A program made the position numbers and the translations under genes. The notes beneath the pieces were generated by a model. It made no database searches and had not been told where the DNA came from. It saw only the letters and a list, made by a program, of their open reading frames with translations. 64,000 bases of DNA from Octopus vulgaris (lineage: Eukaryota): contig OX597819.1 in assembly GCA_951406725.2 (NCBI GenBank), positions 67,580,001 through 67,644,000 of the forward strand. Direction: 5' to 3'. How positions within the stretch are numbered: position 1 is the first letter of the stretch; every line of letters begins with the position of its first letter. This document shows, piece by piece, positions 15,551 to 60,439 of the stretch.

Positions 15551-16453
15551 ATGATGTTTAATTGCACCTTGAGCTTCACAAATACAAGTATTGTCGTCCT
15601 TAAAACTATACGCTATAGTTCCCTAACATTATTGACTTTTGGAACTCTTGGTAACTTAATAGCTATTAGTACATTTTGCATAAATGCAGTGCGTCGATCT
15701 AAAATCACTACATACCTTTTGACGCTTCTTTTTGTGGATTTAATTGCGGACTGGATGAATTTTCCACGTTTTATTTGGACATCCTATTATTTGGAATCTC
15801 CACACACGAAGCTTAACATCTTAAACTCTGAAACCTTCAGATGTCTGACTATTATTGTAACTATCTATTCCTCCTGGATAATCATCGCCATTTCTGCTGA
15901 ACGCCTTTTAGCTGTTTGCTGTCCATTTTCCCGGCATCTCTCTACGAAAGAATATATTCCAAAACTTGTGTTGTTTAGTCTTCTTCTGTTTATATCTATA
16001 GTATTCTTCTGCGCAGCATACATATTACAGAATCCGTTATATATTTACCTGTTTTCAATTACTCTTTATTCGTTAATACCAGCGGTATTTTTGATTATAA
16101 GCTCCGTTATCTTCATTTATATATTACACAATCGACCACAGCTCGGTCAACAACGTCAGAAAAATGTTACCACTCAAAACAGGAATATAATTTACATTGT
16201 TATTTCTATAAATGTTGTATTTTTGTTGACAAAATTTCCTATAACTATATACGCATATGTAATATTACTTAGATATTGCACGTTTAACGGAACTTTACTT
16301 TTATTAGACGTATTTTCTATGGTTAATAATTGTATTAACTTTATGTTATATTTCATACCAAGCAAGATTTTTCGTGGGAATTTGATGTCAGTTTGTCTGA
16401 AAAAGGAAATACCAAAGAGAGATGATGTATATAATTTAGAACAGAAAATATGA
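15551..16453 (+). CDS. Single-exon rhodopsin-class 7TM GPCR (orphan, peptide-receptor-like; candidate chemoreceptor), 300 aa
   Basis: N-terminal sequons NCT and NTS; TM1 GTLGN, TM2 LLFVD, TM3 ISAER, TM5 YSLIPA, TM6 FLLTKFP, TM7 NNCINFMLY, helix 8 SKIFR. Confidence 0.9.
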   Translation: MMFNCTLSFTNTSIVVLKTIRYSSLTLLTFGTLGNLIAISTFCINAVRRSKITTYLLTLLFVDLIADWMNFPRFIWTSYYLESPHTKLNILNSETFRCLTIIVTIYSSWIIIAISAERLLAVCCPFSRHLSTKEYIPKLVLFSLLLFISIVFFCAAYILQNPLYIYLFSITLYSLIPAVFLIISSVIFIYILHNRPQLGQQRQKNVTTQNRNIIYIVISINVVFLLTKFPITIYAYVILLRYCTFNGTLLLLDVFSMVNNCINFMLYFIPSKIFRGNLMSVCLKKEIPKRDDVYNLEQKI

Positions 16454-16984
16454 TCATTACACAGGGGAACAATTTTGAACATTATTCATATTGAGTTTGC
16501 CTTTTCACTTGATGTAGACTAAAACTGGCATATGCACATGTCAAACAATATTCGATTTTCTTCTATTGCGTCAACATCTTACCCGCTGAATAGCCACAAT
16601 TGGATTGTATGTCCGTAAGTAATAGAGCGGGCTAGCTGCTTTTATTATTTTACCGATAACTTTGCAGAACATTCTCGTAAATACTTTCTGTCGTTTTGCG
16701 TCTACAATTTTTACAATTAGTCCTAGCTAATTTCATGTTGGTGAACATAGAAATTCCCTAGAAATGTTCTATCGTGCCAAGTCTTTGTTAAACAGGAATT
16801 ATATTGTACAATACAAAAAATAGTAATGTCCATTTTGCCATTAAATGTAATATTGAAATAAGAAACTAACACAAACCAATTAGTACTTGTTATTGTTTAA
16901 GAAATGTTTATTTATCTTACGATAAATTCAGCTACTCAAGAAATGAACTTTCTGTTTGCTATATTCCGTGCATAACTTACATCA

Positions 16985-17470
16985 AGACAATTTCTTTGTA
17001 GAGAAGAGCAATGGTCAGCCATCATCTACCTGCCTTGATATTTAGTCTCCTTGGTCTTAATATCCTGGTGAAATCTATCTCTTTGATCATCACATATTTC
17101 ACTATGATTTTCAAGGAAGTGGTCGATATAACAGTGCAGGAAATGCATGTTTGCATAATGTTGCAGCCTAACGCTCGAAAACTGTTTGACAGCGTCTGCA
17201 CAAGTTCTTCATTAATTGGTAACTTCCTGTTTCCCAGAAATTTAGACATAACTGCTGCAAACACACTACATTCTTCTTTTTCAACGCCAGATATGATCTG
17301 CGATAACTGCTAGTCCTGCAATAACCACTTAATCTGTGGTCCATCAAACACAACAAACTTAATTTTCTTACAAAACAAAGCTGCTGCCTCTCTGCTTAAG
17401 TCTTTGAAACGGTCAATGCCTTAGTGTTTTAACACCTGTTTTACCCATTATATGGGGTACTTATGATGTG
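16985..17470 (-). mobile_element. Decayed DNA-transposase C-terminus, probably Chapaev-3/CMC-type
   Basis: FLGNRK..FRALGCN, then after a frameshift MHFLHCYIDHFLEN..DDQRDRFHQDIKT..YQGR*MMADHC. Family assignment is from memory. Confidence 0.6.
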
Positions 17471-56834: not shown

Positions 56835-57332
56835 GATGCCCTGATGTAGTACCAGACAGTGGCTGTCGTGGCTTCTGATCTTAACTGATTGGAAGTGTTA
56901 TCATGTATATTGTTTTGTCTTCGTATAAAAGATGGGCTACAGCAAATATTCTGCTCAATACCACAGATTTGGTTGTCAGTTGTTTGACCTTAACCAGTTG
57001 AGCATGTCCCTTAGTGGCTGACGATATGTGCATCATAGCCATGTGTTTAGAGGGATTCTTTAGGGGATTGAATAATTCACCTCTGGAAACATGGGTGTTT
57101 CGTTCAACATCCTTAAACAACCCTTATGCAGGGACCTTTTGAGCATGATGGGTTACTCGACCAGAAGAAAATTCTAACTGGGCCCCACCTGCAACGTCAT
57201 GTGCTGTTTATCTTGATATGAGATCGCCATGTCGCACACATATGGTTGTGATGCATGTACCTGGTGTACCCTTATAGGCTTCGTATATTTTACCCCAGTG
57301 TCACTTTGATGGCATGCACTGCTCTCTCACTC
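56835..57332 (+). mobile_element. Non-coding element of about 500 bp inserted in (AAT)n
   Basis: (AAT)n on both sides; homologues at 1.4-1.8 kb and 26.7-27.7 kb; no meaningful ORF. Confidence 0.8.
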
Positions 57333-59494
57333 AATAATAATAATAATAAATAATAATAATAATAATAATAATAATAATAATAATAATAATAACGTTTTCA
57401 AATTTTGCCACAAGCGCAGTAGTTTGGGGAGAAATGATGTGTCGATTACATGATTACATGGACCCTAATAATCCTTGATAGTAAAGGCACAAAGCTTTAA
57501 TTTAAGGCAGTGTGACAAGTCCATTCATCGACCCCGGTGTTTCACTGTTACTTAAGCTGTCGATGCCGGAAGAATGAAAGTAAGTCCACCTCGGCGAAAC
57601 TTGAATTCAGAACGTGAAGACGGACGAAATGACACTTAGGCCATTTGCACGACTGGCAAATTATTCTGCCATTTTACCATCTAAATGTCTACGCTACAAT
57701 GTTGGAAAAATTTTTTTAAATATTGAGATTTCGTCTGTCTTACCGTTCTGAGTTCAAATTCTAGCGAGGTCGACTTCGCTATTTAATCTTTCGAGATTGA
57801 TAAAATAAGTACCTGTTGAACCATGGAATCGATGTAATCGAATAACCCTCTACCCCCAGGTTTCAGGCGTTTTGTATATAACAGAAAGTGTTACGTAAAT
57901 ATCTGTATATTTATCAATTACCTTTTACACGTTTCAGTCATTTGATTGTGGCCTTTGCTGGGAGACCGTCTTGAAGGTTTTCAGCCGAATAAATCACACA
58001 CACACAAACACACATACACCAACACAACATACACACAAACACGCACGCACACACACCCGCACACACACACACACACACAAACACGCATACACGCACACAC
58101 ACACATACACACACACACACACACACGCACACAAACACGCACACACGCACACACATACACACACACACACACACACACACACACACATATATATATATAT
58201 ATATATATATATATATATATATTTATACAATTGTCTTCTTTCATTTTCCGTCTTGGAAGTCGACTCACAAGGATTCGATCAGCCCGATATATTATTTGAG
58301 TTATACTTGACCAATTTGCAATTCAGTGGGACTGAACCTGGAACCATTTGATTGAGAAGGAAGCTTCTTACTACACACCCACGCCTGCGCTTATTCGTTA
58401 ATGAAAATAGTGTCTAGTCGTTAATATTTGTCGATAGGATACTGAAGTAATATCTGGGCACGTGCTTCTACGCGCGCGTATACACACACGCCTATGTATA
58501 TTGAATATATTTTGGTGTAATAAGATATTTGAACCACACCTTTCATGCGTATGAACACCAGATATCTAATGCTAAGTCATTCATGGGCATAAACAAGCAA
58601 GTCTTTTATGAGCATATATACACTTGCAAATGTATTGAATGGATGCACACAAACATAGATCGTTCAGCAAACACACACGCACAAATGCGTGTATGCATCT
58701 GCATATATACTAATATACACACCTATGCATACGTTCATATCTTCACACACACACACAAATATCAATGATAATTCCATTTGTCAACATCATGCAATTAGTG
58801 TAAGACTGAGGATCGTTTTTACGTTGTCAACTTTACAATACGATTTTAGGATTTGAAATATATAAACATTAGGATTACTAAACAAATACAGTAACCGCAT
58901 ATTAATCATATCTACACCTCCATTTTCTCTCACGTAGCTCTAAAACCATTAGAGGTTGAACCACAAACCAGAGAGGATAAGAACGACAGCAGAGAAAGGC
59001 TCGACAAAATCAACCTCGTTCCTTACCAACAATGCCATGCTGTCAATGCCATCGATTTGTGTATGCAAGAATTGTACAACAGCATCATTGAACGGCATCA
59101 CACCGTTGAATGATGGAAGTGTTCAACAAAGAAGAAAACAAATACTGTTATCTGTGATAAAGCCGACAACGACGTCGACGAGTTTAAAACATTAACACCA
59201 TGAATTTAAAGTTTTATAAATCAGAATCTGTATGTTCACAACGGCTGAAAGTATACAGGTGCTTGGCAAAGTAATGTCTTGATGGTTGTTTCGTGAACGC
59301 GTCGAGAAAAATACTTAGCAGCATTTCATCCGAATTTATATTAATTGCTAAAACCGCATAAATATGTATCGTGTGCCCTAACAATTCACCAATTCGTCGC
59401 TTTAACTATGAATGAAAATATGAATTGTTGAAATAATAATAATATTGAACTTCAAGCGGTTTCACACGAATCATTAAATTGTATATAAAATGAA

Positions 59495-60439
59495 ATGCAG
59501 TCACATCCATTAACAATGAGCAACAATAGCCAGGTGATTGTCAATAATACTAATATATTTATCATTAGTACGATAAGGTACAGCTCCATAGCGTTCTTGA
59601 CACTTGGAACATTCTTTAATGTAGCAGTAATTGGAATATTTTGCAGGAAAGAACTGCGCCAATCCAAAATAGCTCCGTACCTCATTTGCCTCGCGATTGT
59701 AGATTTAGCTATTGTATGGATAAATTACCCACAATTTATTTGGTATGCAGGTATGATGGAAAATTCGACGACTGAAATATTCTTTCTGATGCATCGAAGC
59801 GTTAACGTAATAACTTATTCTTTAAATATGTATTCCACGTGGTTAATCGTAGTCATATCTTTGGAACGCTTGATGGCAGTTTACAGTCCATTTTCTCGCC
59901 TACAGTCCTCTAATCCGTACTCTCCATACGTGGTGATGTTCGTCCTTTTTATTTGTGTTTTCGCAATAAACATCTCAATGCATATATTGCTAAAGGATGA
60001 TTTACTTATATTACACTATTCAGTCATCTTATATGCATTCATACCAGCGGCCTTCTTAATTATCAGTTCAATACTTATGATTTATAAGCTACTCCGACGA
60101 CCAAATCTCGGCCAGCAGTTTCAACGGAACTCTTCAACAAGAACTAGGAATACTATTTGTCTTGTAATCTCTATAAATACTATATTTCTTTTAACAACGT
60201 TCCCAGTATCTATTTGCATCACTTTTCTGAATCCCAATAATGCGATGCACCAAATCGATTCAAACACCATCGTTATTCTAACTGTTGTGGCTTACATTAA
60301 CAACTGTGCGAATTTCTTATGTTATGTAATTACAAGCAAAGTGTTTCGTGAAAATTTGAAGCAAGTATGTTTTGGCAAGCCTACAGGGATACAGCTAAGA
60401 ATGTACACCTTACAAAGCCGACCGAAAACTACAGCGTAA
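59495..60439 (+). CDS. Single-exon rhodopsin-class 7TM GPCR, 314 aa (307 aa from ATG 59516)
   Basis: Sequons NNS and NNT; GTFFN, LAIVD, ISLER, YAFIPA, FLLTTFP, NNCANFLCY, SKVFR. Confidence 0.92.
   Translation: MQSHPLTMSNNSQVIVNNTNIFIISTIRYSSIAFLTLGTFFNVAVIGIFCRKELRQSKIAPYLICLAIVDLAIVWINYPQFIWYAGMMENSTTEIFFLMHRSVNVITYSLNMYSTWLIVVISLERLMAVYSPFSRLQSSNPYSPYVVMFVLFICVFAINISMHILLKDDLLILHYSVILYAFIPAAFLIISSILMIYKLLRRPNLGQQFQRNSSTRTRNTICLVISINTIFLLTTFPVSICITFLNPNNAMHQIDSNTIVILTVVAYINNCANFLCYVITSKVFRENLKQVCFGKPTGIQLRMYTLQSRPKTTA

What the first reader, a model, noticed from the sequence alone, without database searches (positions are those of the whole stretch)
15551..60439. Cluster of miniature, divergent, single-exon GPCRs lacking the usual ECL2 and disulfide: candidate cephalopod chemoreceptor family
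Seen: three intact same-strand receptors of 267-314 aa, strongly diverged from each other. They have very short N-termini, ER(L/T) for DRY and N.NF..Y for NPxxY. The TM4-TM5 loop is only a few residues long, and there is no conserved Cys pair at the top of TM3/ECL2. Known: most class A receptors keep that disulfide, and lophotrochozoans have expanded clusters of peptide-receptor-like GPCRs proposed as chemoreceptors. Inference: an open-pocket, rapidly evolving sensory receptor family.
Basis: partly seen in the sequence, partly recalled or inferred. Interest (0 to 1): 0.7.

Follow-up and report, generated by a model that had tools for sequence, protein, structure and literature searches.

The report
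Octopus cluster of lidless GPCRs
These genes belong to a roughly 490-kb octopus cluster of about 57 small cell-surface receptor genes, half of them broken, that have lost the loop and disulfide bond that normally cap the binding pocket; they likely sense chemicals from outside the animal, but where they are expressed and what they bind is untested.

Summary
Observation confirmed and extended. The three intact receptors (35-41% identical) are real class A GPCRs. They lie inside a 492-kb tandem array of 59 loci: 29 open frames and 30 broken pieces, 58 of 59 on one strand. The array is one clade. All 29 lack Cys3.25, and R3.50 to P5.50 spans 59-61 residues against a median of 79 in 137 relatives, 133 of which keep the Cys. 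AlphaFold gives a TM4-TM5 loop of 2-4 residues. Sister receptors in the same genome show the loop shrinking in steps. Signalling residues are conserved (omega about 0.25 inside, 0.7 outside); pocket omega of about 3 in the youngest seven copies is only suggestive. New details: R1's subgroup carries a paired N-terminus/ECL3 cysteine, and 19 of 29 genes have a splice donor just after the stop, so only the coding region is single-exon. Disulfide loss in lophotrochozoan expansions is published, but with 25-30-residue loops. Expression and ligands are unshown. Verdict: a new structural variant of a known kind, probably chemosensory (0.6).

The parts
15551..16453 (+). R1: intact single-coding-exon class A GPCR, 300 aa; member of the subgroup with an N-terminus/ECL3 Cys pair
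   Evidence: orthologue P0010 at 74% identity
15563..15565 (+). R1 Cys5 codon (N-terminus), predicted partner of Cys243
   Evidence: co-occurrence; the low-pLDDT segments 1-4 and 6-11 leave out residue 5; bond inferred
16028..16033 (+). R1 residues 160-161: the whole predicted TM4-TM5 loop (ECL2)
   Evidence: helices 136-159 and 162-194
16277..16279 (+). R1 Cys243 codon (ECL3)
29522..30325 (+). R2: intact GPCR, 267 aa; early-branching subgroup of the array; keeps N5.58 like the outside relatives
   Evidence: mean pLDDT 86.6, seven TM helices plus helix 8; orthologue P0015 at 69%
55417..56347 (+).
   Evidence: its two pieces are 93% and 98% identical to the in-frame O. sinensis protein P0001
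56345..56350 (+). R3 weak splice donor (GTAAAT) at the place of the family donor; the C-terminus of RefSeq model P0001 departs from the genomic frame exactly here
   Evidence: use of the site is inferred
59516..60439 (+). R4: intact GPCR, 307 aa (314 aa from the ATG at 59495)
   Evidence: orthologue P0002 at 69%
60444..60449 (+). R4 consensus splice donor (CAG|GTAAGT), 7 nt from the first base of the stop codon; likely start of a 3' UTR intron
53164..60748 (+). Tandem duplication that made R3 and R4 (53164-56652 against 58220-60748, three blocks at 76-84% identity)

Best explanation
These genes are members of a large octopus tandem family of rhodopsin-class G-protein-coupled receptors that has lost the loop and disulfide capping the pocket, and they likely work as a repertoire of chemical sensors for cues from outside the animal. 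Shown: array size, single clade, loss of Cys3.25, a spacing about 20 residues shorter across TM4-ECL2-TM5, a conserved signalling core and a variable outer half. Inferred mechanism: (1) an ancestral peptide-receptor-like gene of the FMRFamide/MIP/GPR139 neighbourhood shortened its ECL2 to a small Cys hairpin, a stage still seen in sister genes on C5 and C9. (2) The founder of this array lost the hairpin and both cysteines, leaving TM4 joined to TM5 by a 2-4 residue turn and the pocket open to solvent. (3) Tandem duplication and loss produced about 57 copies with different pocket linings. (4) Ligand binding would be relayed through the conserved D2.50/S3.39/N7.45/N7.49, P5.50/F6.44, R3.50 and Y7.53 positions to a G protein. 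(5) In R1's subgroup an N-terminus-to-ECL3 disulfide would tie TM1 to TM6/7 in place of the lost bond. Each gene is probably its own transcription unit, most with a 3' UTR intron.
For: Array: 59 loci in G000:C6:67,280,422-67,771,954, 29 with a full open frame (27 with an in-frame ATG), 30 broken pieces, 58 of 59 on +; no copy in the 30 kb tiled on either side. Clade: the 42 array-type rows group at 100/99 in an 88-row tree. Loop: spacing 59 in 27 of 29 and 61 in 2 of 29; 58-62 in 13 of 13 clade proteins from other records; median 79 (62-91) in 137 of 138 other hits that could be anchored; Cys near 3.25 in 133 of those 137, at 3.25 in 0 of 29 array genes. Intermediates in this genome: spacings 78, 70, 69, 63 with both Cys; 70 and 63 without Cys3.25. 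Function kept: N1.50, D2.50, S3.39, R3.50, Y5.46, P5.50, F6.44 and P6.50 in 29 of 29; omega about 0.25 for inner columns and 0.7 for outer; entropy 1.27 inner, 2.18 outer, 2.34 pocket. Youngest seven copies: pocket omega about 3 (grid range 1.5-6, 2dL 7.5) against 0.5 inner. Splice donor within 60 nt after the last codon in 19 of 29, against 53 of 778 background windows and 4 of 29 on the reverse strand, at one aligned place across several deep branches. This genomic pattern matches the Aplysia candidate chemoreceptors, which are expressed in rhinophore and tentacle (PMC2700072 passages). The best PDB sequence match is GPR139 (E 3e-16), which responds to L-Trp and L-Phe (PMC8807744 passages) and by my count in the printed alignment also lacks Cys3.25.
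Against: No tissue and no ligand is known. The positive-selection signal is weak: one of 15 partition tests; 5 of 150 random outer-column sets reached a similar statistic and 15 of 150 reached omega of 3 or more; exchange between near-identical copies was not modelled; over all 29 genes pocket omega is about 0.7. An open pocket fits peptide ligands as well (melanocortin receptors). R1, R2 and eight other array genes have one-to-one partners in other records at 63-82% identity, so much of the array is old and stable rather than turning over fast. The published octopus GPCR expansions are expressed mostly in nerve cord, testis and gill as well as sucker and skin (PMC6408891 part 3), so expansion alone does not mean sensory. 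The Cys5-Cys243 bond rests on co-occurrence in one lineage; model coordinates could not be inspected.
Confidence: 0.6

Rival explanations
1. They are internal danger or microbe sensors on haemocytes, skin or gut, working like Mas-related or formyl-peptide receptors (recalled analogy), with shallow, promiscuous pockets.
For: Tandem birth-and-death clusters, a variable pocket and allele-level loss (R3 broken here but in frame in P0001; an 8-base deletion in R4 in the one contig covering that place in run X13) fit immune receptor families as well as sensory ones.
Against: No immune link was found. The nearest comparable molluscan families with expression data are in chemosensory epithelia (PMC2700072 passages). 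An ETS-like motif seen upstream of 2 of 22 genes was not family-wide.
Confidence: 0.17
2. They are an expanded set of receptors for the animal's own peptides (neuropeptides or reproductive peptides), with a melanocortin-like open pocket that takes a peptide without an ECL2 lid.
For: The family descends from peptide-receptor-like genes (Pfam Srw/7tm_1; relatives). MC4R binds peptides with an ECL2 of about four residues, no TM3-ECL2 disulfide and a proposed N-terminus/ECL3 bond (PMC6685040 passages), much like R1. An expansion of FMRFamide-like receptors in Lymnaea has been read as reproductive peptide signalling (PMC11589774 passages).
Against: Half the loci are broken, and pocket positions 3.29, 3.32, 3.36, 5.43, 6.51 and 6.55 each hold 8-13 different residues among 29 genes; receptors for fixed internal ligands are usually single-copy and conserved (established knowledge).
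Confidence: 0.15
3. The array is mostly a decaying duplication, and the short loop is the footprint of a damaged founder gene rather than an adaptation.
For: 30 of 59 loci are broken; the youngest clade has a whole-core omega near 0.8, not clearly below 1.
Against: Inner omega is about 0.25 over 29 genes (2dL 510 against omega 1); eight signalling positions are invariant; full-length orthologues persist in other records at 63-82% identity; the splice donor is kept across deep branches.
Confidence: 0.05
4. The coding exons are alternative cassettes of one large transcription unit that splice to a shared downstream exon, giving one-receptor-per-cell choice by splicing.
For: 58 of 59 loci share a strand; 19 of 29 end in a consensus donor; no downstream block shared between distant paralogues was found within 2-3 kb; a donor/acceptor-like pair upstream of R4 is kept upstream of R3.
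Against: 10 of 29 genes, R1 and R2 among them, lack the donor; left-arm genes each carry their own conserved block about 560-800 nt upstream, as expected of separate promoters; no spliced read was seen.
Confidence: 0.03

Closest known systems
Lineage-specific expansions (LSEs) of class A GPCRs in Lophotrochozoa (Nath et al. 2025, PMC11886862; sections 5, 22, 30, 31 and passages of 13 read; supplementary tables and figures not seen)
   Same: Tandem, lineage-restricted paralogues with full-length, truncated and pseudogene members; variable extracellular half; no TM3-ECL2 disulfide, stated for cephalopods too; proposed as chemoreceptors. The survey used tblastn on 19 cephalopod genomes, so this array may be among its counts.
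   Different: The paper gives ECL2 as 25-30 residues for LSEs; here it is 2-4. It reports no compensating loop disulfides in cephalopods; R1's subgroup has a conserved N-terminus/ECL3 pair (a link it may not have scored). It gives cephalopods a mean of 29 LSE genes per genome; this one locus has about 57 copies.
Aplysia candidate chemoreceptors AcCRa-c (Cummins et al. 2009, PMC2700072; passages)
   Same: Mostly single-exon, clustered, same-strand, divergent rhodopsin-like receptors with a WIT..ER motif in TM3.
   Different: Their signature (F/W)ITAF(I/V)TFERCLCIA is absent here (SSWITVIISLERLLA-type); they are 319-364 aa in subfamily b; their sensory expression is shown. No Aplysia sequence was in my tree.
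GPR139/GPR142 and the protostome FMRFamide, MIP, proctolin and myosuppressin receptor group (PMC8514136 and PMC8807744; passages)
   Same: GPR139 is the best PDB sequence match of the family profile (62.5 bits against 52.3 for the next); it shares S-W-I-T-V in TM3 and N..NF..Y in TM7 and lacks Cys3.25 in the printed alignment; it responds to amino acids.
   Different: GPR139 keeps W6.48 and R6.51 and a longer ECL2 that contacts ligand (spacing 69 by my count); the octopus genes have mostly T6.48 and a variable 6.51. The fold searches do not single it out (rank 50).
Melanocortin receptors, e.g. MC4R (PMC6685040; passages)
   Same: ECL2 of about four residues, no TM3-ECL2 disulfide, proposed N-terminus/ECL3 bond: the same architecture as predicted for R1.
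   Different: Convergent, as far as tested: MC4R has M5.50 and DPxxY, the octopus genes have P5.50 in 29 of 29 and mostly NFxxY; melanocortin receptors are not among the 60 PDB matches shown; they are few and conserved.
Cephalopod GPCR expansions, groups 1-4 (Ritschard et al. 2019, PMC6408891; parts 1 and 3 of 6 read)
   Same: Octopus GPCR expansions in tandem clusters with signs of positive selection.
   Different: Groups 3 and 4 are adhesion and Methuselah-like; groups 1 and 2 lie near tachykinin, orexin, CCK and GnRH receptors. Whether groups 1-2 include this array could not be checked; no O. bimaculoides protein of this clade was found.

Membership tests
Class A (rhodopsin-like) GPCR | Seven-helix bundle with helix 8 matching solved class A structures | tested here: met
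   pTM 0.79, 0.83; TM-score up to 0.75; Z 25.3, rmsd 3.2 A over 264 residues to SSTR2
Class A (rhodopsin-like) GPCR | Profile score above the curated cut-off of 7tm_1 or of Srw | tested here: met
   R1 42.5 and R4 41.2 bits on 7tm_1 (cut-off 30.5); R2 37.0 and R4 53.6 on Srw (cut-off 22.2)
Class A (rhodopsin-like) GPCR | Core signalling residues N1.50, D2.50, R3.50, P5.50, P6.50, Y7.53 | tested here: met
   the first five in 29 of 29, Y7.53 in 28 of 29. Common but not defining marks are missing: Cys3.25, W6.48 and P7.50 each in 0 of 29
Class A (rhodopsin-like) GPCR | Couples to a G protein | not testable with these tools
   needs a cell assay
Lophotrochozoan class A LSE (Nath et al. 2025) | Paralogues form their own clade in tandem in the genome | tested here: met
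   (100/99)
Lophotrochozoan class A LSE (Nath et al. 2025) | No one-to-one orthologues in other lineages | tested here: inconclusive
   One-to-one partners exist in unnamed records at 63-82% identity; how distant those animals are is not given; the only named member is O. sinensis
Lophotrochozoan class A LSE (Nath et al. 2025) | Mix of full-length, truncated and pseudogene copies; higher entropy in the extracellular half | tested here: met
   29 open, 30 broken; entropy 2.18 against 1.27
Lophotrochozoan class A LSE (Nath et al. 2025) | Typical ECL2 of 25-30 residues (a description in the paper, not an entry criterion) | tested here: not met
   2 and 4 residues in the two models; this is why it is filed as a variant
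Chemoreceptor (functional class) | Expression in sensory cells and response to an external chemical | not testable with these tools
   tissue labels are not given and no holder is on record as RNA
Conserved neuropeptide receptor (FMRFamide, MIP, myosuppressin, proctolin types) | Single or few copies with the TM3-ECL2 Cys pair kept | tested here: not met
   59 loci; Cys3.25 in 0 of 29
Conserved neuropeptide receptor (FMRFamide, MIP, myosuppressin, proctolin types) | Groups in a tree with a deorphanised receptor | not tested
   no named, deorphanised receptor was among the rows
Aplysia AcCRa/b | Signature (F/W)ITAF(I/V)TFERCLCIA | tested here: not met
   alignment against the motifs quoted
Melanocortin receptors | Met at 5.50 and DPxxY | tested here: not met
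   P5.50 in 29 of 29; N7.49 in 28 and F7.50 in 26 of 29 (MC4R features)

The most novel reading that the evidence does not exclude
This array is the octopus's main G-protein-coupled odorant or pheromone receptor repertoire, a largely unannotated counterpart of vertebrate olfactory clusters and a second chemosensory system beside the ion-channel chemotactile receptors. It reached an open, melanocortin-like pocket by stepwise deletion of ECL2, with a new N-terminus/ECL3 disulfide in one branch, and it marks the sensory cells of the olfactory organ or sucker rim.
Probability: 0.3. Interest if true: 0.8.

Novelty: new variant of a known kind. Interest (0 to 1): 0.5.

Why it matters
Receptors for octopus smell and distance chemoreception are an open question: a 2025 behavioural paper says the use of the olfactory organ is still not identified (PMC12507230 passages), and a 238-genome survey explains low cephalopod GPCR counts by the ion-channel chemotactile receptors (PMC11886862). 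One locus with 29 open reading frames gives a ready probe set for in situ hybridisation and deorphanisation. It is almost absent from named protein databases: the searches returned one named member, the orthologue of the copy that is broken here. The family is also a natural series for GPCR structure: long ECL2 with disulfide, short hairpin, no loop, then a possible replacement bond, all in one genome.

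Tried and rejected
Expression: no RNA holder listed (12 of 24 rows are guessed RNA with shares of 0.06-0.20). Laying three guessed-RNA runs on R4 gave only short contigs at depth 2-4 over parts of the gene and its 5' flank, with no joint at the donor; these runs were found with R4 and may hold DNA. Four guessed-RNA runs gave no cover of R2. Neither result is used for or against. Hidden exon restoring ECL2: rejected (continuous frame; same spacing in 13 of 13 other clade proteins). 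ER and NF motifs as family novelties: rejected, shared with outside relatives. Fold searches place the models among class A receptors without a standout, so they say nothing on ligand. ESM Atlas gave only generic 7tm_1 clusters. A shared downstream exon or a family-wide promoter motif: none found among 22 representative genes. The first two attempts to read omega from IQ-TREE output failed; values come from a grid of fixed omega and kappa. More copies of the array clade elsewhere in the genome: none in two searches of the own genome, which score only the best candidates. Earlier scan findings: searches returned nothing; the 8 shown concern other GPCR classes. Literature: eight searches showed no description of an ECL2-less octopus cluster; supplements of PMC11886862 (tables S1-S3, fig. 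S4) could not be seen (one search held one 1,049-character file) and may list these genes. Left out of the tree: P0031, P0051, P0057 (over 460 aa) and P0061-P0155. Left out of the 29: all broken loci, including one near-full copy with an altered C-terminus at C6:67,376,098.

Full report
The observation. Three uninterrupted + strand frames lie at 15551-16453 (R1, 300 aa), 29522-30325 (R2, 267 aa) and 59495-60439 (R4, 314 aa; 307 aa from the second ATG, which matches its paralogue). They are 35-41% identical. They pass Pfam cut-offs for 7tm_1 (R1, R4) or Srw (R2, R4). A fourth copy, R3, lies at 55417 to about 56347 with a frame break near 55770. It arose with R4 by tandem duplication (84% DNA identity). 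Its two pieces are 93% and 98% identical to an in-frame Octopus sinensis RefSeq protein, P0001, so the window is from an Octopus genome.

The array. The window is G000:C6:67,580,001-67,644,000. I tiled 67.250-67.803 Mb and searched it with all open-frame members. This gave 59 loci between 67,280,422 and 67,771,954: 29 with a full open frame and 30 broken or partial pieces, two pairs of which may each be one pseudogene (hence about 57 genes). 58 of 59 are on the + strand. Two of the 29 lack an in-frame ATG. Median pairwise identity is 39%, range 29-96% over 406 pairs. No copy lay in the 30 kb tiled beyond either end, and two own-genome searches found only more distant receptors elsewhere.

Relatives. 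A profile search of 1.84 billion representatives gave 11 proteins at 252 bits or more, then a gap to 182 bits. The 7 of these 11 that were looked up are unnamed Logan records. In an 88-row tree, the 29 array genes and 13 other proteins form one clade (100/99). It is nested, with weaker support (90/89), among receptors on C5 and C9 of this genome, their O. bimaculoides orthologues and unnamed proteins. R1, R2 and eight other array genes each pair with one outside protein at 63-82% identity, and R4 is 69% identical to P0002. So much of the array predates this species, while the left arm holds a recent burst of seven genes, each 85-90% identical to its closest copy. The range beyond Octopus cannot be read from unnamed records. 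Neither R1 nor R4 was itself returned by the protein searches made with them.

The missing loop. AlphaFold2 models have seven membrane helices plus helix 8, with 2 residues (R1: helices 136-159 and 162-194) and 4 residues (R2: 118-142 and 147-178) between TM4 and TM5. Both match class A structures with no standout. A measure that does not depend on aligning the loop agrees: R3.50 to P5.50 spans 59 residues in 27 of 29 genes and 61 in 2, and 58-62 in 13 of 13 other clade proteins, against a median of 79 (62-91) in the 137 of 138 other hits that could be anchored. Cys lies near 3.25 in 133 of those 137 and at 3.25 in none of the 29. Six relatives from this genome show steps: 78 with both Cys (C20); 70, 69 and 63 with a short Cys hairpin (C5, C9); 70 and 63 without Cys3.25 (C5). 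The order of events is inferred from a midpoint-rooted tree and was not tested with a constrained topology. No hidden exon can restore the loop, since the frame runs unbroken through it.

A second Cys pair. R1 has Cys5 and Cys243. An N-terminal and an ECL3 Cys occur together in 5 of 29 array genes and in the 4 outside partners of those genes; two other genes were flagged for one Cys only. These nine form two neighbouring branches of unresolved relation, so this is probably one gain, not repeated evidence. MC4R has the same plan: ECL2 of about four residues, no TM3-ECL2 bond, and a proposed but unproven N-terminus/ECL3 bond (PMC6685040 passages).

Signalling core and selection. N1.50, D2.50, S3.39, R3.50, Y5.46, P5.50, F6.44 and P6.50 are invariant in 29 of 29; N7.45, N7.49 and Y7.53 are in 28; W6.48 is replaced, mostly by Thr (generic numbers counted from R1 anchors, their roles recalled). 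ER for DRY and NF for NP are shared with outside relatives and GPR139 has the same NF-type TM7, so they are inherited, not special. One-ratio codon models on a grid give omega of about 0.25 for 153 inner columns and 0.7 for 116 outer columns over 29 genes. In the seven young genes it is about 0.5 inner and 3 at 30 pocket columns chosen beforehand (2dL 7.5). That last result is suggestive only: it is 1 of 15 tests, 5 of 150 random outer sets gave a similar statistic, 15 of 150 reached omega of 3 or more, and exchange between copies was not modelled.

Gene structure. A GT(A/G)AG donor lies within 60 nt after the last codon in 19 of 29 genes, against 53 of 778 background windows and 4 of 29 on the reverse strand. 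It sits 97-122 nt from the helix-8 Arg codon across several deep branches; paralogues are not independent, but the flanks of those branches do not otherwise align. R4 has it at 60444; R1 and R2 lack it at that place. P0001's C-terminus departs from the genomic frame at the matching site in R3. A 3' UTR intron is therefore likely, and its retention suggests that the genes are transcribed. Left-arm loci carry a conserved non-coding block: 18 of 22 hits at E below 0.01 (5 of them training sequences) begin 561-801 nt upstream of a locus, which fits separate promoters. Direct expression evidence was not obtained.

How it likely works. The intact members are likely working G-protein-coupled receptors (inferred from purifying selection and the invariant core) whose pocket is open to solvent (predicted). 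Copy number, half the loci broken, and variation concentrated in the outer half point to a repertoire for many ligands. I put external chemical sensing at 0.6, immune or danger sensing at 0.17, own peptides at 0.15, decay at 0.05 and a spliced cassette array at 0.03. The best PDB sequence match, GPR139, responds to L-Trp and L-Phe (PMC8807744 passages) and shares an origin with protostome FMRFamide and MIP receptors (PMC8514136 passages), which makes amino acids and short peptides the first ligands to try. GPR139's key R6.51 and W6.48 are not kept here, so this is a lead only.

Comparison with what is known. It is a class A GPCR family and fits the lophotrochozoan lineage-specific expansions of Nath et al. 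2025, which already report no TM3-ECL2 disulfide, cephalopods included, but give ECL2 as 25-30 residues (PMC11886862 section 22). Their survey may count these genes; its tables were not visible. It works like the Aplysia candidate chemoreceptor clusters but lacks their signature. It resembles melanocortin receptors in pocket architecture only. Eight paper searches showed no account of an ECL2-less octopus cluster, the stepwise series, the N-terminus/ECL3 pair or the conserved donor. Papers were seen as follows: PMC11886862 outline, sections 5, 22, 30, 31 and passages; PMC6408891 parts 1 and 3 of 6; PMC6685040, PMC8807744, PMC8514136, PMC2700072, PMC11589774 and PMC12507230 passages only.

Verdict. 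The feature is real and larger than reported. It is a new structural variant of a known kind of system, with an untested function. Interest 0.5.

Noticed in passing
window 60000 (run X13): The one contig covering this place in an unlabelled, DNA-like run has an 8-base deletion inside R4, while R3's orthologue is in frame in O. sinensis (P0001): the two sister copies may be lost reciprocally in different animals.
   Followed up: partly
window about 55838-55880: In R3, and in P0001, about 12 codons of TM4 are read in another frame than in R4 and the frame then returns, replacing hydrophobic residues with polar ones.
   Followed up: partly
G000:C5:50,039,278-50,053,993 (L086, L087): A three-gene sister cluster: two keep a short Cys hairpin in ECL2, the middle one keeps the loop length but has lost both cysteines, as has its O. 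bimaculoides orthologue P0020, a likely separate loss.
   Followed up: partly
proteins P0047, P0063, P0143: Three unnamed receptors outside the array clade also have a short spacing (62) and no Cys3.25; P0047 falls far from the octopus clade on a long branch, so the loop may have been lost independently elsewhere.
   Followed up: partly
G000:C6:67.29-67.46 Mb (e.g. L038 about 6300-6590): Conserved non-coding block about 560-800 nt upstream of left-arm receptor loci, with near-invariant TACTTAA and GATATTGATT words; not found before the window's genes.
   Followed up: partly
window 58800-58940 and 53754-53895: A donor-like GTAAGA and a pyrimidine-rich TAG acceptor about 140 nt apart are kept upstream of both R4 and R3: a possible 5' UTR intron.
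   Followed up: partly
G000:C6:67,091,977-67,096,644 (- strand): Two more distant receptors (24-25% to R2) lie about 190 kb left of the array; not fetched.
   Followed up: no
G000:C6:67,767,476-67,768,298 (- strand, L082): The only inverted copy of the array, broken, next to the last gene.
   Followed up: no
L039:1408-2256 and L051:7374-8279: Two full-length frames lack an in-frame ATG; an ATG in another frame lies just upstream, so they look like very recent N-terminal frameshifts.
   Followed up: partly
window 3382-5970 and 61543-64000 (+): Reverse-transcriptase-like frames of non-LTR retrotransposons (label recalled from motifs, not scanned); the first is in pieces, the second runs off the window.
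   Followed up: no
window 11633-12154 (+) and 21247-22065 (-): Fragments resembling a mariner-type transposase and a GIY-YIG/Penelope-type endonuclease (labels recalled, not scanned).
   Followed up: no
window 26089-26554, 37091-37642, 31349-31686: A 184-bp short interspersed repeat, in tandem at two places; the copy near 31400 draws contig depth above 100,000 in four guessed-RNA runs.
   Followed up: no
window 32936-33372, 48080-48977, 20770-21058: Self-complementary (fold-back) stretches seen in the self-comparison, the first 94% identical over 446 columns.
   Followed up: no
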